Below are positions 483 to 63,800 of a stretch of DNA of 64,000 nucleotides, piece by piece; position 1 is the stretch's first letter, and each line of letters starts with the position of its first letter. Position numbers and translations under genes: made by a program. The stretch is from Eledone cirrhosa (taxonomy: Eukaryota): contig OZ024743.1 of assembly GCA_964016885.1 (NCBI GenBank), positions 357,616,001 through 357,680,000 of the forward strand, written 5' to 3'. The notes under the pieces were generated by a model. The model did not search any database. It was not told where the DNA came from and saw only the letters and a list, made by a program, of their open reading frames with translations.

Positions 483-704
483 CATACATATATATATATA
501 TTTTTGAAAGCAGTGATTTCTTTGCATAAACTTTAATCTGTTATTTTAATAAATATTTGCTCTAAGGTTCTTATATATTTGATATATATTTATCCTTATC
601 GAGCGCTCTTTCGATTTGAGTCTTCAAATTTATTATTATTACTATATATATATATATATTAAGAGAGTAAAACAAAGAATCCTTTAATACATCAAAGGTT
701 TTTA

Positions 705-747
705 TTAGCCGACAATGTTTCGTCCTATTAAGGACTCATCAGGGCAA
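705..747 (-). ncRNA. Minimal type I hammerhead ribozyme in pLTR
   Basis: Minus strand reads GCC-CTGATGA-GTCC-TTAATA-GGAC-GAAA-CATT-GTC-GGC. Confidence 0.85.
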
Positions 748-2715
748 TCAAAACAACAAGAGGTAATATAGGCAGATACAAGCCAGAAACTCTGAAGAAT
801 ATGGAGTGTACATACACTAATGTCTTACAAAAATATATGATAATAAAAATGAAAATAAAGATAAAAATAATAAAAATATATAATAAGAATAACTAAGGAT
901 GTAGATAACATTAAGAACCATATTACAAATATAGTCCAAAGCAACTAACCTAAATCTAAACAAATTTGGTTATATAGAGCAGGAATTATATATAACACAA
1001 TATAATACATTATAATAATAATATACTTTTACCAACATTAAAATTCCAAATTAAAAATCAAAAGGTACAATATATACATGTATATATGTGCGCGCACACA
1101 CACACACATATATAACAACACACACATCTATGTTCCACTACACAAAAATTAAGCCCTATTAGAAGTTTGAATATTAAAAATAAGCATGATAAGAGTGAAA
1201 ATAATACTAATACATCTACACAATATACATGAGGCAATAATATGATATAATTACAAGAAACACATATAACAAATAATAAACAACAAAATTATATAATTCA
1301 ATATAATATAATAAAATAGATAATCCCCGGTTAATTTACAGAAACAATATAGATGTCACAATAAAATACAATGATAAACCGTTAACAGTGTACTAACATT
1401 TACCATAAACAATATATACAAATTGATTGATACTGGGTTACAGAATAAATGAGGAAAAATAAATTATATAATACTCAAAAAAACTATAATGGTACAGGGA
1501 AAAATTATGATGTTATAGAAAAAAATATGATGTTACAGAAAAAAATATACAGACATCTAACATGATATGTAAAGTCTAAATATCATAATGTTACATATAA
1601 TGAACAGTAAGTAATAAGGATCAATATTACAATATTACAAAAATCCAGACATCTTACATGATATATAAAGTTTAAATATCATAATGTTACATATAATGAA
1701 CAGTAAGTAATAAGGATCAATATTACATACAATATAATATAATATATTATAAATTGGCATAAAATATATAAATACTTATAATTACAAGGTTAGTAGACAG
1801 ACATATGTGGATGAGTGAGCGAAGCCAGACAGTGAATAGTAAATAGAATATAGAATAAAACAAATAAATACAATCAACCGGAAATTACAAAACAAAAGCA
1901 AATATATACACACTTAGGCCTCGCGTGCATTTAAGAAATTAGGTAAACACTAAGGAAAGCAATCATTTTAATTGACTCCAAACCCTATTTGATAAATTAA
2001 TATTAAAAATATCGAACCCGTCCAATAAGGTAGTATAATATTAGCTGTAGTTTAAGTCATTAAAGTATATAAACTTTAATGTATCGTTACAAATGTTTAC
2101 AAAAAGGAATGAAAATTATACTATCATATACGCAACGATATCTAAAAAAACTGACTTAAATAGAATTAAGGTAGGCTAATGGGGACAGAATTGACGAAAT
2201 ATATGGAGGGTGCGAAGTGGCATAAAATATAGTCGATATACTATAATAAATAATAGAACGGAGCATAAAAGAGGGGGGGGTTAAATATAATCATAGTCAA
2301 TCTGGAGGGGTTGACAATAAGTTTATGTGCGCATGGGGGGAAGGGGGGAGGGGGGAGGGGGGGGGGGGGTTGTCGATAGATAAATCAGAATAGACTTAGA
2401 AATAAAAATAGAATTAAAAATAAAATTAAAATTAAAATTAAAGTTAATAATAAAAAAAATATATAAAAAAAATAATAAAAATATATAATAAAAAAAATAT
2501 AAAGATAATAATAGAATAACGTAAGTGGCGTAACGTGTGTAATCTTATGTATATTAACAAGGTGTAATAGTGAAGACATAGATATGGTACAGTAGCCAAA
2601 TGATTATGAGAGCTAGAATGAAGAGTCATCAAAAACCAATGGTGATAATGATGATAACATTAATGTTGGCAAACAAAAGAACCCAAACAAAAAACTAAGT
2701 AATTGAATATATCTG

Positions 2716-4428
2716 CTAATGGGTACAATTTGTACTACTAGAACATTTGGGTTTATAATAAAAATAAGAATTAGAAATGGCATGGGGGCAAGAAGAGAAT
2801 ATCTCAGACTTTCTATTCAGTAAGGGTAGGCTAGAGAAAATAATAGAGTGTGTCTCAAGTATACAGAGATTACAAAACTTACTATGTGCAGAAAGGTGGT
2901 TAGATCGTGCTACTAAACTCCAGTTAAGGCTATATGGTATATAAGCTCCCTTAAGATCCCAGATATAACGCGCTAAAGAGGTAGAATTCTTAAACCTAAC
3001 ATGTTTGAAGTTAGAGATATGAGAGTTAAACCTAGTCTTAAAAGTGTTTGAAGTAGATCCTATATACGTTCTTTTAGAGGAATTAGTTAAAACCTCGCAA
3101 GCGTAGACAATGTTCTTAGAAAGGCAGTTACCGTTTAGAGGGCAGTTAGCACTCACTCTACAATTGCACTTCCGGGTGTTATTGGTTGGCTCGAGTGGTG
3201 ATGTATTACACGTAGGACCTCTATTAGATAAGGACTGTTCTGGTGGTAAAGCATTGTCAGATCCGTTCAGACTAGTAGTATGTAGAGAGGAGAATCCATC
3301 CCTAATTTTCCTATTATTAGTGCTAGCTAAATGAGAACTAATATTAGGGGTGGTAGAGAATGAGAGTTTAATAACATTTTTATTAAAAATACCATGGTAT
3401 TTGTGAGAAGGGGGGACATTTTTCTCTAAGATAGTGAAGAAAGACCTAGGGATATTAGTTGATACATCCTGATTATATGGCGGGTTGAAATAAGTATTTA
3501 ATCGCCTTCTATTTTTATTTTTATTCTTATCGACCCTACCTCTATCAAATGTCCCACCGTCGAGACTAGGGTTACTATCAGGAATAGTTGAAGCCACATT
3601 CATAGAATCAGCCATAATTTCGTTATGCCTATTATAGTTTCTACCTCCAGTAAATCCGCTGTTGTCCGGAATCCCTACAAGAGGATTAAGGCCAATGATA
3701 GGATCAGTAGGAGCAACATTATTAGAATAAGATCCAGCAAAACCAACACCAATGCGTGAGCGCACAGGGGGTTCGACTTGTCTCCTAGAGGTATTATATT
3801 TGCTATTACGAGTCCGGTGGGATAACTTATGGGTGGGTTCAGATACTCCTATATAAATTCTACGGTTACTATGTTTGCTACTCCCATTCATGGCCATGTT
3901 ATGTGATATAATGTTATTATTATTAAGAGTAAGCGGAGACTTTCTAAGGTTACTATTATTATAATTTATTTTACTAGAGTGACCTGAATTTGCTAGGGCA
4001 TTATTGTAGTACTCCGCATGTTCATTAAAAGTTCCTATGTCCTTAGATAGTGTGGAAATCCTATTAGAAACGCCCTTAATTATAGAGTTTATCATAGACT
4101 TAGGGTGGTTAGAGTTGGGGCTAACATAAGAAAGAATTTCATTAGGCTTATGGAAGGGTTTAAAACTATTGGTGGCCAAGTCCAAAGTCACATCTAAAAA
4201 GTTAACCGCTCTATCATTTCTATCTATCGTGATCGAAAGGTTGTAGCTTTTAAAAAACTTATAAAGCTTCTTCTTATTATGTTCTACATTGTTGGTGCTA
4301 GAGTTAATTACAAACAATGCAACATCACGATATAGTCCGCCTATAAGGTGCGGGAAGGTAGCGTATAGTTCATTAAGGAGGAACAACCCAACAAGATCAG
4401 TAACCTGGGCCGAATCACTCGAACCCAT
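2716..4428 (-). pseudogene. PLE polyprotein C-terminal part: RT palm/thumb, Cys-rich linker, GIY-YIG endonuclease
   Basis: Motifs MGSSDSAQVTDLVG, YRDV (catalytic YRDD mutated), VNFLDVTL, FNPPY, CNCRVSANCPLNGNC, IVY..YIGST..FKTRF, CNLC.LE and LLNRKSE..CPH. The N-terminal RT is missing. Confidence 0.9.
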
Positions 4429-4442
4429 TGTAACGTCGAAAT

Positions 4443-5970
4443 TATTTTTATTTCTAAGTCTATTCTGATTTATCTATCGACAACCCCCCCCCCCCCCTTC
4501 CCCCCCCATGCGCACATAAACTTATTGTCAACCCCTCCAGATTGACTATGATTATATTTAACCCCCCCTCTTTTATGCTCCGTTCTATTATTTATTATAG
4601 TATATCGAGTATATTTTATGCCACTTCGCACCCTCCATATATTTCGTCAATTCTGTCCCCATTAGCCTACCTTTAAGTCAGTTTTTTAGATATCGTTGCG
4701 TATATGATAGTATAATTTTCATTCCTTTTTGTAAACATTTGTAACGATACAATAAAGTTTATATACTTTAATGACTTAAACTACAGCTAATATCACTGTC
4801 TGGCTTCGCTCACTCATCCACATATGTCTGTCTACTAACCTTGTAATTATAAGTATTTATATATTTTATGCCAATTTATAATATATTATATTATATTGTA
4901 TGTAATATTGATCCTTATTACTTACTGTTCATTATATGTAACATTATGATATTTAAACTTTATATATCATGTAAGATGTCTGGATTTTTGTAATATTGTA
5001 ATATTGATCCTTATTACTTACTGTTCATTATATGTAACATTATGATATTTAGACTTTACATATCATGTTAGATGTCTGTATATTTTTTTCTGTAACATCA
5101 TATTTTTTTCTATAACATCATAATTTTTCCCTGTACCATTATAGTTTTTTTGAGTATTATATAATTTATTTTTCCTCATTTATTCTGTAACCCAGTATCA
5201 ATCAATTTGTATATATTGTTTATGGTAAATGTTAGTACACTGTTAACGGTTTATCATTGTATTTTATTGTGACATCTATATTGTTTCTGTAAATTAACCG
5301 GGGATTATCTATTTTATTATATTATATTGAATTATATAATTTTGTTGTTTATTATTTGTTATATGTGTTTCTTGTAATTATATCATATTATTGCCTCATG
5401 TATATTGGGTAGATGTATTAGTATTATTTTCACTCTTATCATGCTTATTTTTAATATTCAAACTTCTAATAGGGCTTAATTTTTGTGTAGTGGAACATAG
5501 ATGTGTGTGTTGTTATATATGTGTGTGTGTGTGCGCGCACATATATACATGTATATATTGTACCTTTTGATTTTTAATTTGGAATTTTAATGTTGGTAAA
5601 AGTATATTATTATTATAATGTATTATATTGTGTTATATATAATTCCTGCTCTATATAACCAAATTTGTTTAGATTTAGGTTAGTTGCTTTGGACTATATT
5701 TGTAATATGGTTCTTAATGTTATCTACATCCTTAGTTATTCTTATTATATATTTTTATTTTTTTTATCTTTATTTTCATTTTTATTATCATATATTTTTG
5801 TAAGACATTAGTGTATGTACACTCCATATTCTTCAGAGTTTCTGGCTTGTATCTGCCTATATTACCTCTTGTTGTTTTGATTGCCCTGATGAGTCCTTAA
5901 TAGGACGAAACATTGTCGGCTAATAAAAACTTTTGATGTATTAAAGGATTCTTTGTTTTACTCTCTTAAT
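4443..5970. repeat. Inverted copy of 658-2410 with a ~200 bp internal deletion
   Basis: Near-perfect reverse complement, including the G/C tract and a 96-bp-period tandem duplication. About 1836-2036 is absent from this arm. Confidence 0.95.
5881..5923 (+). ncRNA. Minimal type I hammerhead ribozyme in inverted pLTR
   Basis: ttGCC CTGATGA GTCC ttaata GGAC GAAA Catt GTC GGC. Confidence 0.85.
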
Positions 5971-6883: not shown

Positions 6884-7780
<897 letters not shown>

Positions 7781-8980: not shown

Positions 8981-9346
<366 letters not shown>

Positions 9347-23393: not shown

Positions 23394-23735
<342 letters not shown>

Positions 23736-23818
23736 CGACCTTTCAGACCTTTATTAGCTGGCAGGAGGTTGTATATTTTGTCGTTCCTGGGACGTTTAGC
23801 CCTAGGAAGGGAAAATGC

Positions 23819-23897
23819 TTCTCTGATGAGCTTTGGTTTTCCATCATAAATCCATCGGATTTATGAGGTTTTACAAAGCGAAACTGATCAGTAAGGG
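23819..23897 (+). ncRNA. Type I hammerhead ribozyme with extended stem II, copy 1
   Basis: TTCT CTGATGA GCTTTG[..TCATAAATCC atc GGATTTATGA..]CAAAGC GAAA CTGATCAG TA AGGG. Confidence 0.85.
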
Positions 23898-24303
23898 CCA
23901 CTAGAAGAGGTAAATATTTATATTATATTTTTTAATGTATTTTGAAAAATTGATTGAATTTTACTTGTTCTGCTTATCTTAATATTAAAGTTCTGGTGTA
24001 TCAAATTAACACCATTGAACAACCTTGAATCATAGACAACCTATGTATTTCCAGGGGTACCTAGTATCCCTGGACATATTAACTTCTACCTTTTTCTCCG
24101 TCCGTTGAGAACAATCCTGTTGCTCTACTTGGCTCCTATTTTTTTAGTAGTAATTGTAGACAGCAAGTCTTTGATTTTCCCGCTTTTACTTCGGCCCAGT
24201 TTACATACGGGTCAATTTTACGACCTTTCAGACCTTTATTAGCTGGCAGGAGGTTGTATATTTTGTCGTTCCTGGGACGTTCAGCCCTAGGAAGCGAAAA
24301 TGC

Positions 24304-24382
24304 TTCTCTGATGAGCTTTGGTTTTCCATCATAAATCCATCGGATTTATGAGTTTTTACAAAGCGAAACTGATCAGTAAGGG
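24304..24382 (+). ncRNA. Type I hammerhead ribozyme with extended stem II, copy 2
   Basis: Same motif 485 bp downstream of copy 1. Confidence 0.85.
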
Positions 24383-24466
24383 CCACTAGAAGAGGTAAAT
24401 ATTTATATTATATTTTTTAATGTATTTTGAAAAATTGATTGAATTTTACTTGTTCTGCTTATCTTA

Positions 24467-24563
<97 letters not shown>

Positions 24564-28661: not shown

Positions 28662-28772
28662 TGTGGGTGCGTGTGCTTGTGTAATTATGTATATCAATAT
28701 ATATATATATATATATATGTCCTTGTGGTGCGTGTGCTTGTGTAATTATGTATATCAATATATATATATATA
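28543..28772. repeat. Three copies of a ~37-bp unit separated by (TA)n
   Basis: ATGTCCTTGTGGGTGCGTGTGCTTGTGTAA occurs three times. Confidence 0.8.
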
Positions 28773-29068
28773 TAAAAACAAATAACGAAACGGAATTAAA
28801 TTTCGTTTCGTTTGTAACTCACTTTTGTATGACTGACGCTTAAACAATTAAGTTAAAAATGTACATCTACATATGCATACTGAAATACTAGTGTGTATAT
28901 GAATACACACACGTATACATATGTAGGTGTACCAAGTCTTTCACTGGTCGCTTTACAGTGAGCGGCCCAGCTATTCTGTATGTAAACACACAGACAAACC
29001 GGTTTCTAGAGTCATACTGGTTTTTCAGGGGAACACCTTCCCCCTATTCTCCAGAAAGCCAGACAAGG

Positions 29069-29113
29069 AATATTGAACTAGTTTCGTTGTTGTTACAACT
29101 CATCAGCAATATT
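29069..29113 (-). ncRNA. Type I hammerhead ribozyme
   Basis: AATATTG CTGATGA GTTGT aaca ACAAC GAAA CTAG TT CAATATT. Confidence 0.85.
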
Positions 29114-29852
29114 TACCTATCTACCGGCCTTTCTGGAGAATTGTAAAAGCACATATCGTTATATGCTTTTTCTATGAAAATTAGTAGTGGGCAGACTAAT
29201 TTGCATAGAGTGTGAGTACGCACCGGTTCAGCGGAGACGATAAAAACAAATAACGAAACGGAATTAAATTTCGTTTCGTTTGTAACTCACTTTTGTATGA
29301 CTGACGCTTAAACAATTAAGTTAAAAATGTACATCTACATATGCATACTGAAATACTAGTGTGTATATGAATACACACACGTATACATATGTAGGTGTAC
29401 CAAGTCTTTCACTGGTCGCTTTACAGTGAGCGGCCCAGCTATTCTGTATGTAAACACACAGACAAACCGGTTTCTAGAGTCATACTGGTTTTTCAGGGGA
29501 ACACCTGTGTGTTTACATACAGAATAGCTGGGCCGCTCACTGTAAAGCGACCAGTGAAAGACTTGGTACACCTACATATGTATACGTGTGTGTATTCATA
29601 TACACACTAGTATTTCAGTATGCATATGTAGATGTACATTTTTAACTTAATTGTTTAAGCGTCAGTCATACAAAAGTGAGTTACAAACGAAACGAAATTT
29701 AATTCCGTTTCGTTATTTGTTTTTATCGTCTCCGCTGAACCGGTGCGTACTCACACTCTATGCAAATTAGTCTGCCCACTACTAATTTTCATAGAAAAAG
29801 CATATAACGATATGTGCTTTTACAATTCTCCAGAAAGGCCGGTAGATAGGTA

Positions 29853-29897
29853 AATATTGCTGATGAGTTGTAACAACAACGAAACTAGTTCAATATT
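29853..29897 (+). ncRNA. Type I hammerhead ribozyme (inverted copy)
   Basis: Identical motif on the plus strand. Confidence 0.85.
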
Positions 29898-30117
29898 CCT
29901 TGTCTGGCTTTCTGGAGAATAGGGGGAAGGTGTTCCCCTGAAAAACCAGTATGACTCTAGAAACCGGTTTGTCTGTGTGTTTACATACAGAATAGCTGGG
30001 CCGCTCACTGTAAAGCGACCAGTGAAAGACTTGGTACACCTACATATGTATACGTGTGTGTATTCATATACACACTAGTATTTCAGTATGCATATGTAGA
30101 TGTACATTTTTAACTTA

Positions 30118-30171
<54 letters not shown>

Positions 30172-31715: not shown

Positions 31716-31835
31716 CAGATTGAAGGCGGTAAAAACCAGCTAGACCATTACTCACCGGAGTACTCGATACCTAGGGTAGTAGAGTGGGTAATATGAAAAT
31801 ATTCAGGACCCCGACGGCTGAGCTCCGGCCGTTTT
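31715..31835 (-). mobile_element. Diverged member of the 'CCCCGACGGC' family
   Basis: Shares GAGTACTC.ATAC.TAGGGTAGTAGAGTGGG..GACCCCGACGGC with 23509, 44622 and 56929. Confidence 0.65.
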
Positions 31836-32226: not shown

Positions 32227-32297
32227 CTTAAGTACGGCTGTTACTTAAGTATAATTATGTACACGTACATACATATATGTATACAGACGTACAGTAG

Positions 32298-32347
<50 letters not shown>

Positions 32348-32660
32348 CATGCACACATATATATATATGTACGTATGGATTCACCGAACATTTATTATAA
32401 TGCTCGGTGTGTTTGTAAACAAACATCCCGAATTAAGCCGTACAGTGTCTAGCAACCATCGTTGCTCATTTGTTCAACACTGACAAAGGAACGCTGTACT
32501 AGTTTCAAGCTTATTAGCTATCGTCAGCAACGTTGAACAAATGAGCAACGATGGTTGTTAGACACTGTACGGCTTAATACGGGATGTTTGTTTACAAACA
32601 CACCGAGCATTATAATAAATGTTCGGTGAATCCATACCTACATATATATATATGTGCATG

Positions 32661-32712
<52 letters not shown>

Positions 32713-32760
32713 CTACTGTACGTCTGTATACATATATGTATGTACGTGTACATACTTATA
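32227..32760. mobile_element. Palindromic copy of the 6884-7672 HHR family
   Basis: Arms 32250-32478 and 32532-32760 with the HHR in the spacer; (TA)n flanks. Confidence 0.85.
32492..32532 (-). ncRNA. Type I hammerhead ribozyme
   Basis: CGTTG CTGACGA t AGCT aata AGCT t GAAA CTAG TA CAGCG; core identical to 7362, with compensated stem I changes. Confidence 0.85.
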
Positions 32761-38574: not shown

Positions 38575-38753
38575 ATATATATATAACATACAAAGATTAG
38601 CTTTGTTTAAAAACAGCGGAGAATTTGTAAATTAGATGATGAAATAGTGCTTCGCTGTATTTTTGACTAAGTAAATGAGCCTAATATATATATTGAGTAT
38701 TGAGTACTTTGGTGCGTTATGGTCCACTTGGTTCCTTACCACATTTCCTTCGT

Positions 38754-38798
<45 letters not shown>

Positions 38799-44525: not shown

Positions 44526-44888
<363 letters not shown>

Positions 44889-45938: not shown

Positions 45939-48274
45939 AATATGAATAAACTCACCACTCTGGCATCACTGAAGGACATCCCATTACCGGGCAAACGAGA
46001 ATACACCAGGAATCTCACTAAGAGTACTGACTCCCTAATACGCAGGCAGGATGAGGTGGAGGGCTTACCACTTTGATAGAGGAAACCCCAGTACTAATAA
46101 CAAAAAAACCATGGAGTGCCTCTTCTGATCAAGAAGGACCCCCCCCCCCCACAATAGACTATTGGAGGAGTTCGAGAACGAAATGATTGGCATTATTTCC
46201 AACATCAAATTTGCCGACCAATTATACCCGGGTCGAGAGTACCTTAGACGACTGGAAAATGGAATTACCGAGCTTAAGGAATCTACAGGAATACTCGTCC
46301 ATGCCGACAAAACCAACAACCTTTACAGCATGGACGTTCAACTTTACCATGAGCTAATCCTCAGGGAATTGAGAAAAAGCTACAAAAAAACGCCCGAGGT
46401 TACCCTGGAGGATATCAACATCAAGTCTTATGAGATCGTATCTGGTATTGGTATAGATGATAGGACGGTCCATGCCAACCAAGGGAGCAGAGGATTACCA
46501 TTAACGACCACAAACCAAACTTTGAGTCTAACCTGCCGGTCAAACTGATAGCCCCCTCCCGGTCAGACTAGGGGGTTATTAGCAAAAGCAATTTAGATAG
46601 GATCCTGCCCACACTTAAGAGTAAAATAAGGTTACAACTCTGGTCCTGCACCAGCCAGGTGCTGGACTGGTTTACATTTTTACCTGACAAACATAGGACT
46701 AGCTTCATACAACTAGACATCAACAATTACTACTCCTCTATCTCGCCCATAGTCCTGAACAAGGCACGCATATTCGCGATGAATAGGACAGACCTAACGC
46801 GCGACGAGGTCCGAATCATACACGCCGCCAGAAAGACCCTGATCCGATTCGGTGGGGACATATGGACCCGGAGTGACTGGCCAAATAACTTTGACATTAC
46901 AATGGGCTTACAATGGGCTCCAGTGACTCCGTAGTTAAGAGTGTCTCTGACAAGATCTCTAACTTGTCTGCCAATAAAGAGATCTTCAATAGTAATGCTG
47001 ATTACTATAACTCAGCGCTAGCTAAGGCGTCCCACAGCCATAGGATCAGCTATAACCCAAAGGGACATGATCGAGATGACGCAAAGGTACCCCGGGCCAA
47101 TAGCCTTAGGGGCATGAGTCGCCCACATAATATCTCGGTGACCAGTAGTAACACTCCCAGACCCCTATCCGTTACCACCCCTGGTAGAAGGTCCCGCATA
47201 ACACACCGGTCTAATACCTACAACTCTGAAGACAACTGCGGTGCGGAGAATAGGCACCCTTGCACCGGCCCCACCACCCGCCGAACCCTAATTGAGCAGG
47301 GAGGCCGCACCGCGCAGGTTTATAACCCCACGGTGGGCCCATATAACCCTCATGAGAGTGACCGCTCCGCACACCTGAGTGACACCAACCGAGCTCGACC
47401 TGAGCTGTGCACAACCCCGCGATGGACCACGGCAAACACCCAACAACCCCGCAAGAATAGGACCAGGAAGGTCACATGGTATAACCCCCCGTACTCGGTG
47501 GGTCTACGTACCAGCCTGGCTAGAACATTCTTTAGAGTACTGGATAAATGTTTCCCTAGGGCCCACAAGTGCCATAAAATATTCAACAGGCACACGGTGA
47601 AACTTTCCTACTCAACCACACGCTCCGTAGCCCAGCACATAGCCGGCATAAATAGGAATAGGCTCAATGCCTCTAATACCACCGTAAACCCCGGAGCCAC
47701 CCAACGGAACCAGCACGCAGGACGCACCAGACCCCGGACAAGCCCAACTAACACACCGGAACCCAACGACCCTGTGCTGATTGCGGCGGCTACCCAGCCA
47801 GCCCCGAGTGATGGTAACCACGCGGTACATGTGCTGGGGCTTAAGAAGTCATGCAATTGCAGAGACCCATCACTATGCCCCCTTAGTAATGAATGCATGA
47901 CGAAAAACGTAGTCTACAGGTGCAAGGTCACAACCCCTAACTCGGAGCACAACTACATAGGATTCGCGGCGACGAGCTTCAAAGATAGGTGGTATAACCA
48001 TCGCCATTCCTTTAACAGAATAGAAAAGGGGAAATGTACGGCCCTTTCTGAATTGATCTGGAAGCTCAAACTTGAAAAGACCCCGCACTCTCTGGTCTGG
48101 TCCGTGGTTAGAAAGGTTCTCCCAGACAGAGGCATGTCTGGTATTTGCAACCTCTGTCTTAGTGAGACATTCGAGATACTTCATGGCGGAACCAAGAGAT
48201 TAAACAGAAGGGCCGACTTATTCGGCACCTGCAGACACCTAAGGACGGGAACTTTCCTCAAGCTATATGGATAA
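45939..48274 (+). pseudogene. PLE polyprotein pseudogene; RT catalytic core deleted; C-terminal 453-aa ORF with GIY-YIG
   Basis: ADKTNNLY and FIQLDINNYYSSI motifs. MGSSDS is joined directly to the thumb region with no YRDD. WYNPPY, CNCRDPSLCPLSNEC, VVY..YIG..FKDRW and CNLCLSE follow. Confidence 0.9.
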
Positions 48275-49569
48275 ACCTCGGTTATGGCCTCCCACAACGC
48301 TCGCAGGTGCCCTACACCCCGTACCAATGACCAATGGACAACAACAACCACCTATAGTTTGTAGTCCCTACGGTAGATTGTCCACCGGATCCTCTACTGG
48401 TTAGGAGTCAACAAAACGACGTTTATTGAACCTGAGGACCCCCCCGGGAGTAGCCCATACAGGAAGAACAATTATCCCAAGGTACTAACCCTATACGCAT
48501 GAATGAGTGCCCGCAACCGTGCATTGTGTGTGTATACTGGGATTACGTGAATGTACACACTCATGTGAACGCAACAAAATACTAATACCCCAGGTTGCAT
48601 TTGAAAAATGTTCGAGTGTATGCTTAAGAGTATATTTGTATATGCTCTCTTGTATGAGTGCACATGTGTATATAGACATACACGCGCATCCAGAGGTATA
48701 AAAGTGTGGGTGGGTATATATGTCTGTACTAAGGGACTCGCCTAAGCTCCAAAGCCCCCAAGCTATTGCTGTGAAGATATATATCACACTCTACTTTTGT
48801 CTAGTCTAAACAATAACTTTTCCAAACACCCACTTTACTTTTCTTTAAAAATAACACCCACCTAGTTTTATGCCTGCCTTATACTTGAATTTGGGGGCCT
48901 CTGTTGTATATATATATATGCACTTGTACGTATATATATATACACACACCTGTATGGATTTGTGTGTGTAGATGTGTGTGTGTCTGAGAGGTAGGTGTGA
49001 GTGTATGTACAAGTCAACCAACATAAGTCGTTTTATTTCTAAAATTTCTAAACTTTCTAAGTATTTGACTCTAACCATAATTTTCAGTATTACCACCCCA
49101 CATAAATTCCTCAATTTGTATGTGTGGCTGTGTGTGTGTGTCTGTGGAGGTGGGTGTGAGTGTATGTGCAAGTCAACCAACATAAGTCTTTTTATATGTA
49201 AATTTTCAAGGATTCTACTCTAACCATAATTTTCAGTAGTACCACCCCACATAAATTCCTCAATTTAAGAATGACCTGTAGTATCGAATTTCATACTATA
49301 AACCTCAATTGAATATATATCTGACCAGGAATGCTTTTTGTGAAAATCAGTCATATGGAACTATTGTCATCTTGCCTGACGGTTTGAACTTTACAACACC
49401 ACCTGCCTCTTTGAGGTCAAATACCAACCTTACTAGCATTTACAAACTGACCAATAAGAATTAAGATTTTTCCTGCTGATAATATTAAATTATTCCTAAC
49501 AAGCTCATATGCCCCAAGGCTCTGATACCATCAACACCATAAACACAGAGCATATCTAAGAACTGACTA

Positions 49570-49602
49570 ACTGCCTGATGAGGTCGAAATATATATAGCA
49601 GT
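49570..49602 (+). ncRNA. Hammerhead remnant with stem II deleted
   Basis: ACTGC CTGATGA GGTC GAAA TATATATA GCAGT; 23 bp missing relative to 45636-45691. Confidence 0.65.
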
Positions 49603-56272: not shown

Positions 56273-56279
<7 letters not shown>

Positions 56280-56870
56280 ATTGAGGTTGGTAATGGCACA
56301 TGGAATATATAAGAGACAGAATACTTTTTTGTGAAAAAACATATAATTTTATAAGGTAAGGAAATAATAAAGGGTATAAACAATGACCGGTTTCGATGGG
56401 TCTGCAAAAGCCATCTTTTCAAATGTTGATTAATATTAAGAAAAATTAATAATACGAAGAGTTAAAATTTGAGATTTGAAAATTCAAGTATAAAATTCAT
56501 TGTGGGATTTCATAGTAGTTTTCATCTAGGTAGCAACAACAGGTTGACTGCTGTGTCCCTTTCTGGTAGTGAATGAGCAGAAAGGGACACAGCAGTCAAC
56601 CTGTTGTTGCTACCTAGATGAAAACTACTATGAAATCCCACAATGAATTTTATACTTGAATTTTCAAATCTCAAATTTTAACTCTTCGTATTATTAATTT
56701 TTCTTAATATTAATCAACATTTGAAAAGATGGCTTTTGCAGACCCATCGAAACCGGTCATTTTTTATACCCTTTATTATTTCCTTACCTTATAAAATTAT
56801 ATGTTTTTTCACAAAAAAGTATTCTGTCTCTTATATATTCCATGTGCCATTACCAACCTCAATTTTCTCT
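56273..56870. repeat. Near-perfect palindrome: 293-bp arms, 12-bp spacer
   Basis: 56273-56565 versus 56578-56870, one mismatch seen. Confidence 0.95.
56716..56764 (+). ncRNA. Hammerhead-like motif with altered core (mirror copy at ~56379-56427 on minus)
   Basis: AACAT TTGAAAA GATGG cttttgcagac CCATC GAAA CCGG TC AT. Confidence 0.55.
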
Positions 56871-56928
56871 ATAACCTTCGTTTTGTGTAGAAAATTACAC
56901 TTTTTATATATATATATATATATATATA

Positions 56929-57125
56929 TAGGAAAAAATATGACCCCGACGGCAGAGCTCAAGCCGTTACGACGGCTATTTCTTAGTCCAGAAATAGCTG
57001 TCGAAACGGCTTGAGCTCTGCCGTCGGGGTCATATCTTTTCCTATTTCCCACTCTACTACCCTAAGTATTGAGTACTCTGGTGCGTTATGGTCCATCTGA
57101 TTCCTTACCACAATGCCTTTGTTAT
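56929..57125 (+). mobile_element. 'CCCCGACGGC' family copy preserving HHR stem II-GAAA-stem III-GUC
   Basis: GACGGCTATTTC ttagtcca GAAATAGCTGTC GAAA CGGC ttgagctct GCCG TC GGGGTC; the 5' core is replaced by an inverted copy. Confidence 0.7.
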
Positions 57126-57153
57126 ATATATATATATATATATACATAATGGG

Positions 57154-57259
57154 TGAATAGAGAGTCTTGTTACTCTGGAGTTTCGCTTGTTTATCACAGA
57201 TAATCTGATAACCCTGTGATAAACAGGCGAAACTCCAGAGTAACAAAACTCACTATTTA
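57154..57259. repeat. Palindrome centred on a putative HHR stem II
   Basis: GCTTGTTTATCACAG..CTGTGATAAACAGGC GAAA CTC ca GAG TA; the left arm is the mirror of the GAAA/stem III part. Confidence 0.7.
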
Positions 57260-57310
57260 GCTTTAATAAAATGAATATTAAAACTCTACTTCGGTATTGA
57301 GACCACATAC

Positions 57311-57388
<78 letters not shown>

Positions 57389-60091: not shown

Positions 60092-63000
60092 TGTATGTAT
60101 GTATGTATGTATGTATATATGTATGTTTTCTCTTTCTCTTAATTTTGAGTATATTTTTTGACCGGCCACCTTCCTGGTGGCAAGGTTGTAAAAGAAAAGA
60201 AATTGTCATCCCTTGAATCGCAAGAATGTTTTGCAAATTTTGAAGGTGCCAGCTATCGCAGCCATTTGTAGACTATGAATTAGGGAGCTGCGCTTTTTGT
60301 CCGCAAATCCAAGTTCAGTCATACTTTGGTCCAAGCGGGTTGGTATATAACCCGTAGCACCAATAATGATGGGTATGAAGCTAAAGGTGTATCTTGGATA
60401 CTGGATTTGTAAACTCCTCATCAATGGTCCGTAGATGTCCTCCTTCTCCTGTATTTTTCTGACAACGTTTACATCAAGTGGGCAGCTGATCTCCACAACA
60501 GAACACGTTTTCAATGTGTGGTCCCAAACTACAATATCAGGCCGGTTGTGCTTTAATTTGGTGGCAGTTTTTATTTTCAGGTTCCACCAGTATTCCTTAG
60601 TGCCATCTGTCTCAATATATTCTTCCTCGTTTGTTGTTGATTTTGTTTTCCGAAGTGCGTTCCAGATGGTTCTAGCTATCCCATCGTGTCTCATGGGGAG
60701 GTAGTAGCGAGATGACATTCTTTCGCAGCTGGCAACAATGTGGCTTACATCCTCGATCTTTGTTTTACATAGCCTACATTTATTGTCAGCTGCTGGCCCT
60801 CCTCTTTTGTGCAGCAGATATTTGGTAGGGAGTTCTTGTTCCTGTATTGCATAGAGATATCCCTCAAGGTGTGATGTCATAAACTTGTCGGAACTCCATG
60901 CCAGGCTTTTTGAGTGGTTTATCCCCTCTATGGTCTGTGTTTTACGCCTCAAGTATCCATGCACAACTTTTTCTGTAAATTGGTCAATTTTTTTTTCTTG
61001 TTTGAACATTGAATAGGATCTTCCGATTTCTCTGGGTGAGAGATTTATATCGGGCTTTATTCCATATCTCTCCTCCAGATCAGTCGCTATTCTAATGATA
61101 TTTCTTTTTTCATGGTCATAAACCTGGGCAAGATGGTTGCCAACCTTTTTCCTCTGTTGAAGGTGTTGCTTCAGTGTCACTATCCGGGTCTCATATGTTG
61201 TTAATATTGATTTTAGACCCCGGCCACCTTCCTTGCGTGAGAAGTATAGCCTATCCACATCACCATTGATGTTAAAGTTCCCAGTAACACTGAGAAGTTT
61301 TCGAGTTCTAACATCCATCTCACTTAGTTCTTGCAATGACCAGTTCAGTAGGCCAAATGTTGGCGTTAGAATTGGCACAGCATAAGTATTGTGGGCAATG
61401 TATTTGTTGTATGCTGACAGTTCTGATGACCATATTTTCTTTACTCTTCTGAGGTATTCAGTTCTGGTTCTCTCCTTATTTATGGGTCTATCATATCTGA
61501 CATTCTCATCCTGTCCAAGATATCTGTAGTTGTCACCTGACTGCAGAGGTTGTATTGTCAGGCCGTTCATCTCTAGATTTCTAGAGGAGGGCACAGCTCT
61601 TCCACGTTTTACTGCCAAATATGCACACTTGGACTCACCAAATTTCATTTTGATGTCGGTTGAAAATTGTGTAATGAGGTCCAATTGTTTCTTGATGTCA
61701 TTGATATTTGGCCCATACAACTTCAGGTCATCAACAAAGAAAAGATGGGAGATACTTCTGGTCCCACTTCTTTGTCGACCTTGTTTCCTGAGTAGGTAAG
61801 ATAGTGGATTCAGTGAGAGAACGAAGAGTAGCACTGACAAGCTATCACCCTGAAAGATGCCCTTCTGGTAATGTATCTTATCAGTCTTAACCTGCTCCTT
61901 CTCACCTCTAAGGATCAAACTGGTGTACCAGTTCTTGGTCAGGCGTTCAACAGCAGCTACCAATGGTTGTGGGACTTTAGCTAACTGTAAAGCCTTAACA
62001 ATCCACCCATGAGGTACACTATCAAATGCTTTTTGATAGTCCAGCCACACGACAGTCATGTTTCTGCGATTCTTTGTTGTTTTTTCCTGAATCATTTTGT
62101 TAGTTAGTAGGTGATCTATGCAACCCCACACCTCCCTCTTTCCACCAGCTTGCTCAGGTGTTATGATGTTGTTGGTAGCACAGTGATCCTGTAAGAACAG
62201 GTTAAGGCACCCAGTATATAATTTATACATGATGTTTTGGCAGGCAATTGGGCGGTAATTTTTAGCAAGGGTGGTTTGGCTATTTTGGGGAATGAGGAGA
62301 GTAGAGGCAGTTGATAACCATCTGGGCAGTTCTTGTGTGCCCTTAATGGTTTCTGTAAACAGCCGTATGAGATCTTGCCGATAGAAAGTGAAATTCTTCA
62401 ACCAGTATCCTGTAATGAGGTCTGGGCCTGGCGATTTCCTATTCGACATTTTCTGTAGAGCTGTTTCCAGTATTGACCCATCTATGTCATATTGTTTTGT
62501 CTGGACATGTTGGCAGTAGTCCTGTTCCAGTTCTTTTAGCCAATTAGCTTGTCTGTTGAATCCGTCATCCGTTTCCCATACAGATCTCCAGTAGCTCTCA
62601 ACCTGTTCTTTTGAAGGGGTGTCATTTACAGAGATTGAGCTTTTGCCACCGAAGCTGCGATAAACTGATTTAGGATCTCTGGCAAACAATCTATTTAGCA
62701 CTTGTCGTTTATGTGCTGTTGACTTATATTTTAGTCTTTCTGTTGTAGCTGTGAGTTGTTGTTTCAACTGGTGTAATTTGGAGTTCAAAGTTTTAAATTT
62801 TGTATCTCCAAATCTTCTCTCTAACTTTTTCTTTAGGTCTTCCTGGTGTTGTGTGAAGTTGCTCTCTATGTTGCATTTCATAACGACTGCGATGTGTGAG
62901 ATACTTCGTCTCAGGGACAAAATTTTGGTTTTTAAATTTCGCATCCACGCTGGTTCAGGCTTTCTGTTTGTATCTTGATTGCGTGGTTTTAGATGTGTGT

Positions 63001-63800
63001 TATATGCTAGCAATGTGACAGCTGAAACATATAACAAAACATTAAGCGTTTCAAATGTCGTTTCTACACCTTTAGATCGTATAGCCTTCAGATAATTGCC
63101 AGCTATTTCGTTCACCGCTTCCAATTCCAATTTAGTGGGTTCTTTACTGACTCTAGTGTTGTATGGTCTGTCACTCACATTAAGGCTGTGTATCTCTTGA
63201 AACATATCATTCCATATCACTTGTAGGGAGCCCACAAGTTTTTGGTGCTCTGTTTGTTCAGTAGAGTCATGCATTTCAGCCTCGTTGTTGATGTGGTGAC
63301 AATTACTACTAGAGTCAGCTGACCTTTCTCGCTGTTCTTCAGTGGAAGTGGGATGAATTTCAGTAAAATTGTTGGTGAGCTGTTCACTGTTAGATTTAGC
63401 TGGCCATTCCCTTTGTCTGTCAGTGTAGGTGGGGTGGTTGTCTACAAGGGCTGTATTTGTAGTATCACTCGATTCCGTTAGATGTATCAATTTACATCTA
63501 ATGATACGTTTTGCCTGTTCATTTAAATGCTTTGGAGAAAAGTCTAATTCTGGGTGTTTGGAGTTCCATAAAGTTTTTAGCCTTTGCATAAAACCGAACT
63601 TTTGGGGTTCAGATTGTTTGTATGCTTCATATAATACTTTGTTAAGCTCGTAGGTCCACTGTATACAACGGTTGTAATTGCGATTTGGTCGAAGGAGACT
63701 TGTACTTTTTGCCATGATGAGTTCGTCTATTCACTAATATTTCGTATTTATTTTTCAAAATAGTCGATGATCTTCTTTAAAAGTTACGACAAAGTTCTGT
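60092..63800 (-). mobile_element. R4/Dong-type non-LTR retrotransposon, apparently full length (5' end uncertain)
   Basis: Single long ORF, ~80-nt 3' UTR and (TACA)n tail/target at 60092-60126. Confidence 0.85.
60206..63715 (-). CDS. RT + CCHC zinc knuckle + restriction-like endonuclease (R4/Dong clade), 1169 aa
   Basis: KSPGPD, YRPIAC, WLDYQKAFDSVPH, GIFQGDSLS, HLFFVDDLKLY, YRYLG, RKEGGRGL, CRLC..EDVSHIVASC, RHD, RPDIVV..VEISCP..K..Y; no internal stops. Confidence 0.93.
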   Translation of the reverse strand: MAKSTSLLRPNRNYNRCIQWTYELNKVLYEAYKQSEPQKFGFMQRLKTLWNSKHPELDFSPKHLNEQAKRIIRCKLIHLTESSDTTNTALVDNHPTYTDRQREWPAKSNSEQLTNNFTEIHPTSTEEQRERSADSSSNCHHINNEAEMHDSTEQTEHQKLVGSLQVIWNDMFQEIHSLNVSDRPYNTRVSKEPTKLELEAVNEIAGNYLKAIRSKGVETTFETLNVLLYVSAVTLLAYNTHLKPRNQDTNRKPEPAWMRNLKTKILSLRRSISHIAVVMKCNIESNFTQHQEDLKKKLERRFGDTKFKTLNSKLHQLKQQLTATTERLKYKSTAHKRQVLNRLFARDPKSVYRSFGGKSSISVNDTPSKEQVESYWRSVWETDDGFNRQANWLKELEQDYCQHVQTKQYDIDGSILETALQKMSNRKSPGPDLITGYWLKNFTFYRQDLIRLFTETIKGTQELPRWLSTASTLLIPQNSQTTLAKNYRPIACQNIMYKLYTGCLNLFLQDHCATNNIITPEQAGGKREVWGCIDHLLTNKMIQEKTTKNRRNMTVVWLDYQKAFDSVPHGWIVKALQLAKVPQPLVAAVERLTKNWYTSLILRGEKEQVKTDKIHYQKGIFQGDSLSVLLFVLSLNPLSYLLRKQGRQRSGTRSISHLFFVDDLKLYGPNINDIKKQLDLITQFSTDIKMKFGESKCAYLAVKRGRAVPSSRNLEMNGLTIQPLQSGDNYRYLGQDENVRYDRPINKERTRTEYLRRVKKIWSSELSAYNKYIAHNTYAVPILTPTFGLLNWSLQELSEMDVRTRKLLSVTGNFNINGDVDRLYFSRKEGGRGLKSILTTYETRIVTLKQHLQQRKKVGNHLAQVYDHEKRNIIRIATDLEERYGIKPDINLSPREIGRSYSMFKQEKKIDQFTEKVVHGYLRRKTQTIEGINHSKSLAWSSDKFMTSHLEGYLYAIQEQELPTKYLLHKRGGPAADNKCRLCKTKIEDVSHIVASCERMSSRYYLPMRHDGIARTIWNALRKTKSTTNEEEYIETDGTKEYWWNLKIKTATKLKHNRPDIVVWDHTLKTCSVVEISCPLDVNVVRKIQEKEDIYGPLMRSLQIQYPRYTFSFIPIIIGATGYIPTRLDQSMTELGFADKKRSSLIHSLQMAAIAGTFKICKTFLRFKG

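What the first reader, a model, noticed from the sequence alone, without database searches (positions are those of the whole stretch)
56929..57259. Palindromes that turn around exactly on hammerhead stem II
Seen: two adjacent, unrelated palindromes (56929-57045 and 57154-57259) each read stem II hairpin-GAAA-stem III-NUH on the right. On the left, where CUGANGA should be, there is a mirror copy of the GAAA/stem III/downstream part. Inference: the nascent cDNA snapped back on the ribozyme's own helix and self-primed second-strand synthesis. This would give a structural explanation for inverted pLTR formation and would turn HHR elements into MITE-like hairpins.
Basis: partly seen in the sequence, partly recalled or inferred. 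Interest (0 to 1): 0.78.

Follow-up and report, generated by a model that had tools for sequence, protein, structure and literature searches.

The report
Penelope retroelement stubs, head-to-head hammerhead ends
The two hairpins are short leftover ends of Penelope-like jumping genes, each a head-to-head pair of truncated copies in a TA repeat that turns inside a hammerhead ribozyme but not on its stem II, which makes them ordinary examples of a known insertion pattern, likely made by priming from both target strands.

Summary
Both palindromes are real and both right arms read as hammerhead 3' halves. The stem II claim fails.

In P2 (57156-57257) the core is not replaced by a mirror. The true stem II lies wholly in the right arm, and the axis is at or just 5' of the core.

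In P1 (56928-57045), un-inverted relatives show a loop II of about 30 nt. P1 keeps only 6-9 nt of it, and its left arm is an inverted copy, not the native stem II strand. Its CUGANGA was not seen.

Both elements have a one-sided 3' tail (77 nt; about 78 nt) with a shared motif and sit in (TA)n. This is the published Penelope-like 'inverted truncated copy plus tail' pattern. Three window copies of the P1 family turn in different ways. In 8 of 10 shown read junctions the inverted arm holds sequence the direct copy lacks, which a simple snap-back cannot make.

Self-priming at Penelope inverted junctions was proposed in 2013. What stays open: the two arms often end near each other, and some turn points recur.

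The parts
56905..56930 (.). (TA)13 run, target left of P1 (shared with the tail end of the 56273-56904 element)
   Evidence: sequence
56928..56983 (-). P1 inverted, tail-less copy; reverse complement of 56990-57045
   Evidence: same outer end in the 23.5 kb and 44.7 kb copies; loose ends behind 57045 are (TA)n in 128 X1 contigs and 981 X21 reads
56983..56991 (+). P1 direct copy begins: 3' remnant of hammerhead loop II (spacer 56984-56989)
   Evidence: loose ends before 56983; T>G at 56984 in 49193 of 57218 depth in X1
56992..57031 (+). P1 hammerhead 3' half: stem II 3' strand 56992-57002, GAAA 57003-06, stem III 57007-10/57020-23, predicted cut after 57025, predicted stem I 3' strand 57026-31
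   Evidence: native complementary strand in loose ends; core not seen
57046..57122 (+). P1 one-sided 3' tail, 77 nt, with the ACTCTACT...GTATTGAG motif
   Evidence: present in four other window copies
57123..57144 (.). (TA)11 between the two insertions
57145..57155 (.). 11 unpaired bases outside the P2 left arm, origin unexplained
57156..57205 (-). P2 inverted, tail-less copy; clean pairing to 57199, decayed pairing to 57205 about an axis at 57206
   Evidence: read variants at 57200, 57202 and 57210 restore two of the pairs
57205..57211 (+). P2 hammerhead core, CTGATAA in this copy, CUGAUGA in the family
57213..57242 (+). P2 stem II 57213-17/57223-27, GAAA 57229-32, near-palindromic stem III 57233-40, predicted cut after 57242
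57258..57313 (+). P2 one-sided 3' tail, 56 nt here; the family has about 22 more nt after 57301 (about 78 nt)
   Evidence: loose end behind 57301 in 215 X1 contigs
57314..57385 (.). (TA)36 run right of P2
23509..23646 (+). P1-family copy, turn in loop III
44623..44783 (-). P1-family copy whose tail-less inverted arm (about 56 nt) is longer than the tail-bearing arm (about 30 nt)
31716..31834 (-). P1-family copy, 5'-truncated near GAAA, no inversion
38696..38754 (+). P1-family tail-only fragment before a TA run

Best explanation
P1 and P2 are two separate stub insertions of hammerhead-bearing Penelope-like element ends into a (TA)n tract, each a tail-bearing 5'-truncated copy joined head to head to a tail-less inverted copy, likely made when both nicked strands of the TA target primed reverse transcription from the two start sites that bound the tail. 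The two cDNAs would copy the same uncleaved RNA (or RNAs with the same 5' end), stop near each other, and be joined at 1-7 nt microhomologies or mini-palindromes (inferred). If the first enzyme is blocked at the inner start site, arms without overlap result (inferred). The turn falls inside the hammerhead because the ribozyme begins 15-20 nt from the inner end and the arms are only 50-60 nt long. It lies in loop II in P1 and at or just 5' of the core in P2, not on the stem II helix. Shown: anatomy, P2 core, un-inverted P1 relatives, spread of junctions. Inferred: P1 core, the mobilising enzyme, the two-ended priming. About 0.85 for the identity and 0.55-0.6 for the mechanism given that identity.
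For: Architecture matches the published one: inverted 5'-truncated copy, tail at one end, (TA)n targets (PMC8557442 passages; PMC3846280). The Poseidon protein PAc nicks and extends both strands, has two RT start sites that bound the tail, and uses uncleaved RNA (PMC11167929). One fixed outer end at 57045 abuts (TA)n in three window copies and in reads. Tail-less arms differ from their own partner by 1, 0 and 0 of 21 letters and from the other copies' partners by 1-5. Of 10 shown left-arm junctions, 8 have an inverted arm reaching further 5' than the direct copy and 5 have no overlap at all; 5 begin at 57041-57053, next to the inner end. In 3 of 9 measurable window inversions the tail-less arm is the longer one. 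The window holds 11 intact-core hammerhead sites and ORFs with RT, CxC...CxxxxC linker and GIY-YIG motifs inside inverted repeats. TTGAG occurs in the tails of P1, P2 and 3 of 6 other inversions, one beside an ORF-bearing element; background 5.6%, p about 0.003, motif chosen after the fact.
Against: Six of 9 measurable window inversions are nearly symmetric (shorter/longer arm 0.8 or more; p about 0.005 for independent lengths after dropping P1 and P2, about 0.015 if two tandem cases count as asymmetric), and in all six the tail-bearing arm is the longer one, exactly as fold-back predicts. The inner end of P1 and P2 falls at CT-ATT, and ATT is the preferred cut of PAc, which suits resolution of a fold-back by the nuclease. 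Junctions without overlap could be later one-sided deletions of palindromes, and hairpins are under-sequenced. Only 15 of 80 joints were shown. The P1 core was not seen, and no ORF was linked directly to either family. The tails are about twice the published 30-40 bp. P2's left arm is separated from (TA)n by 11 unexplained bases. Rfam found no hammerhead in either palindrome.
Confidence: 0.5

Rival explanations
1. Generic snap-back. One cDNA primed at the tail end stops, folds back on a 1-6 nt microhomology or mini-palindrome (the C3-U4-G5 mini-palindrome in P2, the 6-nt palindrome in loop III at 23.5 kb), copies itself, and is cut by the GIY-YIG nuclease at the tail boundary. Asymmetric junctions are later deletions from the hairpin tip.
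For: Six of 9 window inversions are near-symmetric with the tail-bearing arm longer. Snap-back junctions are documented for R2 proteins in cells (PMC11371274; PMC11331408). Self-priming at Penelope inverted junctions was proposed in PMC3846280 (there argued for an antisense template). Inner ends of inverted arms cluster near 56984-56993 while direct ends vary, as tip deletions would give. Two shown joints (56962>57000, 56966>57002) fit fold-back; the second could have turned on the small native hairpin around GAAA.
Against: Three of 9 window inversions and 8 of 10 shown read joints need an extra deletion. The 658-5970 element has the tail on the short arm and the ORF on the long arm, so neither arm contains the other. 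The fixed outer end needs an unshown nuclease step. The cluster of inner ends lies at the edge of what short contigs can show.
Confidence: 0.3
2. One reading: the cDNA snaps back on the ribozyme's own stem II helix, which explains inverted pLTRs in general.
For: Both palindromes turn inside the hammerhead. A diverged contig of the same length spans P1 (X1 record 1), and several inverted arms end a few nt 5' of the stem II 3' strand.
Against: None of the junctions seen keeps the native loop II as spacer. Inverted arms run past stem II into loop II. P2 turns at the core. Six of 12 hammerhead-bearing inversions in the window turn wholly outside the ribozyme. Naiad elements lack canonical hammerheads but form the same inversions (PMC8557442).
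Confidence: 0.07
3. P1 and P2 are non-autonomous DNA elements (MITE or Helentron-associated type) with a fixed subterminal hairpin whose centre mutates, and GAAA is a chance loop.
For: Fixed outer ends and very high abundance of the P1 family (23,939 contigs laid from X1, both families together). In P1 the two helices around GAAA resemble each other, and the core was not seen.
Against: P2 has a full CUGAUGA core in the family. Un-inverted and 5'-truncated copies exist. The inverted arm is subterminal on one side only. Arms follow each copy's own letters. No 3' terminal stem-loop or paired terminal repeats were seen.
Confidence: 0.06
4. The palindromes are assembly artefacts.
For: No listed contig spans the whole stretch. 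Penelope inversions are known to trouble assemblies.
Against: The arms carry 3 mismatches each. Eight shown X1 contigs span both arms of P1-like or P2-like copies (table 8). Three window copies have the same architecture.
Confidence: 0.02

Closest known systems
Head-to-head inverted pLTR insertions with a one-sided tail of endonuclease-bearing Penelope-like elements (Penelope/Poseidon, Neptune, Nematis; PMC3846280, PMC8557442)
   Same: Inverted 5'-truncated copy next to a direct copy, tail on one side only, palindrome at the junction, (TA)n targets, type I hammerhead near the 3' end.
   Different: Very short (arms of 50-60 nt, no ORF). Tails of 77-78 nt against 30-40 bp in print. The hammerhead is only 15-20 nt from the inner end, so the junction cuts into it. 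No target-site duplication can be read in (TA)n.
Minimal and variant type I hammerheads of metazoan PLEs (Cervera and de la Pena 2014, PMC4209133)
   Same: P2 has a short near-palindromic stem III, as in ribozymes that work as dimers. That paper notes pairs of motifs 100-700 bp apart on opposite strands.
   Different: P2 has C opposite C at 10.1/11.1 and a decayed core in this copy. P1 has a stable 4-bp stem III and a long loop II, like the intact motif at 9198 (-).
Animal non-LTR retrozymes (bioRxiv 10.64898/2026.07.22.740005)
   Same: Non-coding, type I hammerhead, proposed non-autonomous PLE derivatives; the P1 family's abundance would suit such a parasite.
   Different: Retrozymes are defined there as tandem repeats with complete hammerheads; P1 and P2 are single truncated stubs, and no tandem array of these families was seen.
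L1 5'-inverted insertions by twin priming (PMC11702581) and R2 snap-back junctions (PMC11371274)
   Same: Twin priming gives inner breakpoints close together with short deletions or duplications, like the non-overlapping P1-family joints near 57045. Snap-back gives an antisense copy at the 5' junction.
   Different: Here the second arm has one fixed outer end, and arms often overlap almost fully, which L1 twin priming does not give.

Membership tests
Penelope-like element (EN+) insertion | Inverted 5'-truncated copy adjacent to a direct copy | tested here: met
   un-inverted relatives
Penelope-like element (EN+) insertion | 3' tail on one end only | tested here: met
   57046-57122 and 57258-57313; longer than the 30-40 bp in PMC8557442
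Penelope-like element (EN+) insertion | AT-rich or (TA)n target | tested here: met
   TA runs flank both elements and the 23.5 kb and 44.7 kb copies; P2 has 11 extra bases on the left
Penelope-like element (EN+) insertion | RT plus GIY-YIG ORF belonging to the same family | tested here: inconclusive
   Such ORFs lie in the window (Pfam GIY-YIG only E=0.0034, below cut-off), but none ends in the P1 or P2 sequence; link only by the TTGAG tail motif
Penelope-like element (EN+) insertion | Target-site duplication | not testable with these tools
   cannot be read inside (TA)n; no empty allele seen
Type I hammerhead ribozyme (P2 family) | CUGANGA core, stem II, GAAA, stem III, NUH | tested here: met
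   A>G at 57210 in about 95% of X1 depth and 621 of 641 X21 reads
Type I hammerhead ribozyme (P2 family) | Stem I closed by a 5' strand upstream of the core | tested here: inconclusive
   1 bp in this copy, because the inversion removed the 5' strand; A>G at 57203 in 10 of 11 X21 reads would add a second pair
Type I hammerhead ribozyme (P2 family) | Purine-pyrimidine pair 10.1-11.1 | tested here: not met
   C57212 faces C57228 in this copy; three intact-core motifs in the window (two families) also have a mismatch there; family letter not among the 40 of 205 rows shown
Type I hammerhead ribozyme (P1 family) | CUGANGA 5' of stem II | tested here: inconclusive
   loose ends show only 30 letters, reaching the native stem II 5' strand but not the core; no copy found in public collections
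Type I hammerhead ribozyme (P1 family) | Stem II, GAAA, stem III, NUH | tested here: met
   8 letters of the X6 loose end and 6 of the X1 consensus complement 56992-56999
Type I hammerhead ribozyme | Self-cleavage | not testable with these tools
   needs an in vitro assay
MITE | Terminal inverted repeats at both ends, same in all copies | tested here: not met
   one arm is subterminal; un-inverted and truncated copies exist; arms follow copy-specific letters
Non-LTR retrozyme | Tandem units, each with a complete hammerhead | tested here: not met
   no tandem array of these families in the window; the rest of the genome could not be read

The most novel reading that the evidence does not exclude
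The fold of the uncleaved hammerhead sets preferred stops for reverse transcription (at C3 in the P2 family, at the 3' edge of loop II in the P1 family), and two enzymes of a Penelope dimer copy one RNA from the two tail-bounding start sites to that shared stop. The ribozyme would then shape where inversions turn without cutting and without snap-back on stem II. Hints: three of seven shown two-armed P2 contigs are within 1-2 nt of P2's length, a P2-family joint ends at 57204, a diverged contig has P1's length, and two of three inverted window copies end at 56990-56992. Display limits and shared ancestry could give the same picture.
Probability: 0.22. Interest if true: 0.55.

Novelty: new member of a known kind. 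Interest (0 to 1): 0.3.

Why it matters
How Penelope-like elements form their inverted repeats is still open (PMC8557442 calls these features undefined; PMC11167929 leaves the later steps unvalidated). These two stubs do not answer it and do not support a role for stem II. Their use is as a test bed: the P1 family is very abundant, short, and has one fixed outer end, so a genome-wide table of the two inner ends in young copies would separate two-ended priming from snap-back and show whether ribozyme helices are stop sites. The case also shows a trap for scans: any inversion just upstream of GAAA fakes a stem II.

Tried and rejected
One laying of reads was available; it showed 15 of 80 joints, 12 of 35 inserted-letter rows, 21 of 609 loose ends, 22 of 24,320 pieces and 40 of 205 variant rows.

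Rfam: no hammerhead hit on either palindrome; whole-window hits below gathering score at 704-748, 5880-5924, 29053-29124 and 29842-29913 (150 of 214 rows shown). miRNA hits are generic hairpin matches.

Pattern scans for P1-family sequence found 0 loci in metagenome, genome and viral collections. A looser tail motif found 5 metagenome loci, none with a hammerhead by my descriptor; about chance level by my rough estimate, not used. The native loop II motif is absent from the window.

Run search: no RNA holder listed. The X21 pile of ends at 57113 was set aside because the tool skips 57114-57155. Loose ends behind 57045 cannot tell tail-less direct copies from left arms read backwards, so they count only for the fixed end. 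Depths were not used as copy numbers. PDB search of the 585-aa ORF: nothing significant.

Considered and rejected: a decayed core at 56978-56989 in P1 (no stem II partner, not conserved in X6).

Literature searches listed no paper tying PLE inversion points to hammerhead helices; the library lacks most subscription papers, and no supplements were read.

Full report
Setting. The window is AT-rich animal-like DNA full of (TA)n runs and inverted repeats. A descriptor search finds 12 hammerhead-like sites, 11 with an intact core, against a mean of 0.51 in 100 shuffles. Several broken ORFs carry RT motifs, a cysteine linker and GIY-YIG motifs. The one at 2719-4473 has a weak Pfam GIY-YIG hit (E=0.0034, below cut-off), matches a second such ORF at E=9e-43, and its atlas neighbours include clusters with GIY-YIG and RT domains in a minority of members. 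I read these ORFs as Neptune- or Nematis-type Penelope-like elements (PLEs) from the linker described in PMC8557442 and from recalled motifs; no tree was built. No genome is held.

The observation. Both palindromes are real: 56-nt arms at 95% and 44-nt arms at 93%, with 0 of 200 shuffles as stable. Both right arms read C-GAAA-stem III-NUH. The arms are unrelated. P1 continues into a 77-nt tail (57046-57122) found in four other window copies, and P2 into a 56-nt tail; both sit in TA runs. A loose end in 215 contigs shows the P2 family tail is about 22 nt longer, so about 78 nt. The tails share the motif ACTCTACT...GTATTGAG. A third element of the same build, with 293-nt arms and a 34-nt tail, lies directly upstream (56273-56904).

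P2. The core is present. It is the only 1-mismatch hit in the window, and 0 of 100 shuffles gave a hit with short stem II and a stem III of 3 bp or more. Reads carry G at 57210: depth 15657 of 16518 in X1, and 458 of 463 and 163 of 178 reads in X21. Stem II is 57213-17/57223-27, inside the right arm. With window letters, clean pairing stops at 57199:57214, and 5 of 7 further pairs form about an axis at 57206. Variants at 57200 and 57202 (11 contigs each) with 57210 restore the other two. So the turn is at C3-U4-G5, or at the least between stem I and stem II. Seven shown X1 contigs span both arms; against the reference they are +1, +1, +2, -4, +5, +11 and -12 nt long (table 8). One shown joint links 57204 to 57269 on opposite strands. 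Against the ribozyme reading: C faces C at 10.1/11.1, stem I has 1 bp in this copy, and Rfam gives no hammerhead hit.

P1. Loose ends before 56983 (114 contigs in X1, 2 in X5, 1 in X6, the latter about 100 letters long and lying on nothing in the stretch) show un-inverted relatives. About 30 nt upstream they carry letters complementary to 56992-56999, the native 5' strand of a long stem II. Only 30 letters are printed, so the core, expected just beyond, was not seen, and five collection scans found no copy. P1 keeps 6-9 nt of that loop. Its left arm ends in the complement of 56990-56991, not in the native loop letters, so it is an inverted copy and not the native stem II strand. Other contigs extend the inverted arm 3-4 nt further (table 5c). 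A snap-back on stem II would keep the whole loop; no junction shown does.

Spread of turn points. Of four other window copies, one turns in loop III (23.5 kb), one has a tail-less arm of about 56 nt against a tail-bearing arm of about 30 nt (44.7 kb), one is truncated near GAAA without inversion, and one is tail only. All three inverted copies share the outer end 57045. Their tail-less arms differ from their own partners by 1, 0 and 0 of 21 letters and from other copies' partners by 1-5, so the mirror arm is likely made anew each time, though gene conversion could do the same. Of 15 shown joints (80 in all), 10 run from the left arm to the right arm or tail. In 2 the inverted arm is contained in the direct copy, in 8 it is not, and in 5 the arms do not overlap. 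Three more P1 joints are on opposite strands, one is a plain deletion, and one belongs to P2. Limits: short contigs only show inverted arms that end within a few nt of 56983 or downstream, the best-supported rows were kept, and hairpins sequence poorly. Among 12 hammerhead-bearing inversions in the window, 6 have at least one inner end inside the ribozyme (three P1-family copies, P2, 9087-9347, 32250-32760) and 6 turn outside it (my hand tally, counting the decayed motif near 56710).

Mechanism. The build is the published one: an inverted 5'-truncated copy, a tail at one end, (TA)n targets (PMC8557442, passages), with palindromes at the junction (PMC3846280, abstract and passages). PAc nicks and extends both strands, starts at two sites that bound the tail, and does not need ribozyme cleavage (PMC11167929, main text). 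I favour priming from both strands of the symmetric TA target. It gives the fixed outer end, arms of either length order, and the non-overlapping joints near 57045 that resemble L1 twin priming (PMC11702581, passages). It must also explain coupling: 6 of 9 measurable inversions have arm ratios of 0.8 or more, against 0.117 expected per case for independent exponential lengths (p about 0.005 without P1 and P2; arm lengths set by hand, and detection favours symmetric cases). A shared template end would explain this, but so does snap-back, and in all six the tail-bearing arm is the longer one. Snap-back is documented for R2 (PMC11371274 and PMC11331408, passages), and self-priming was proposed for Penelope in 2013, there on an antisense template. 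It needs a nuclease cut at the tail boundary, which does fall at ATT in P1 and P2, and later deletions for the asymmetric cases. I put two-ended priming at 0.5, generic snap-back at 0.3 and stem II snap-back at 0.07.

Comparison and novelty. These are new members of a known kind. Hammerheads in pLTRs and opposite-strand pairs are described in PMC4209133 (parts 1-2 of 4 read), and non-coding PLE derivatives in bioRxiv 10.64898/2026.07.22.740005 (part 1 of 5). Naiads lack canonical hammerheads and still invert, so the ribozyme is not needed. Seven searches listed no paper linking turn points to ribozyme helices; key older papers are outside the library and no supplements were read. Earlier AI notes on other genomes describe similar stubs; they are leads, not support, and one pointed me to PMC3846280. 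What remains is a hint of preferred stops at C3 and at the loop II edge, which display limits or shared ancestry could also produce. Interest 0.3.

Noticed in passing
window 56273-56904: Third element of the same build in the same TA tract: 293-nt arms, 12-nt spacer, 34-nt one-sided tail, and a decayed hammerhead-like motif near 56710-56745 in each arm, about 135 nt from the turn.
   Followed up: partly
window 49560-49600 against 45686 (-): The direct terminal repeat behind the 46129-48274 ORF has lost almost all of stem II (core joined to GAAA after four letters), while the inverted copy keeps it.
   Followed up: no
window 28772-30125: Young insertion (99-100% identity between parts) of a 468-nt hammerhead-bearing tandem unit without ORF, head to head with a 46-nt spacer; retrozyme-like.
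   Followed up: partly
window 23730-24470: Partial tandem of a 485-nt unit with an intact hammerhead, long stem II and palindromic stem III, directly behind the 23.5 kb P1-family copy.
   Followed up: no
window 32250-32760: Inversion whose direct copy starts about 7-10 nt upstream of the hammerhead core, at stem I.
   Followed up: partly
window 60209-63730 (-): Uninterrupted 1174-aa ORF with RVT_1 (E=7e-24) and zf-RVT; likely a non-LTR element with a restriction-like endonuclease (recalled motifs).
   Followed up: no
window 57145-57155: Eleven bases between (TA)11 and the P2 left arm that do not pair with the right side; read outward they resemble the start of the P1 tail.
   Followed up: no
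window 57018-57025, 7184-7191, 32230-32240, and the P2-family loose end behind 57301: The motif CAGCCGT recurs near the 3' ends of three different families (P1-family copies, P2-family tail, 7.3/32.5 kb family tail); significance not tested.
   Followed up: no
runs X5 and X6 (organisms B and C): Both hold the P1 family (39 and 6 contigs), including un-inverted forms, but show no depth on P2.
   Followed up: partly
window 658-5970: PLE insertion with 1.5-kb inverted repeats, a 5'-truncated RT-GIY-YIG ORF on the long tail-less arm and the tail on the short arm.
   Followed up: partly
L002 (rc 61-85 and 239-609): Metagenome locus with the tail-like motif next to a short TA run and nested inverted repeats; no hammerhead found.
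   Followed up: no
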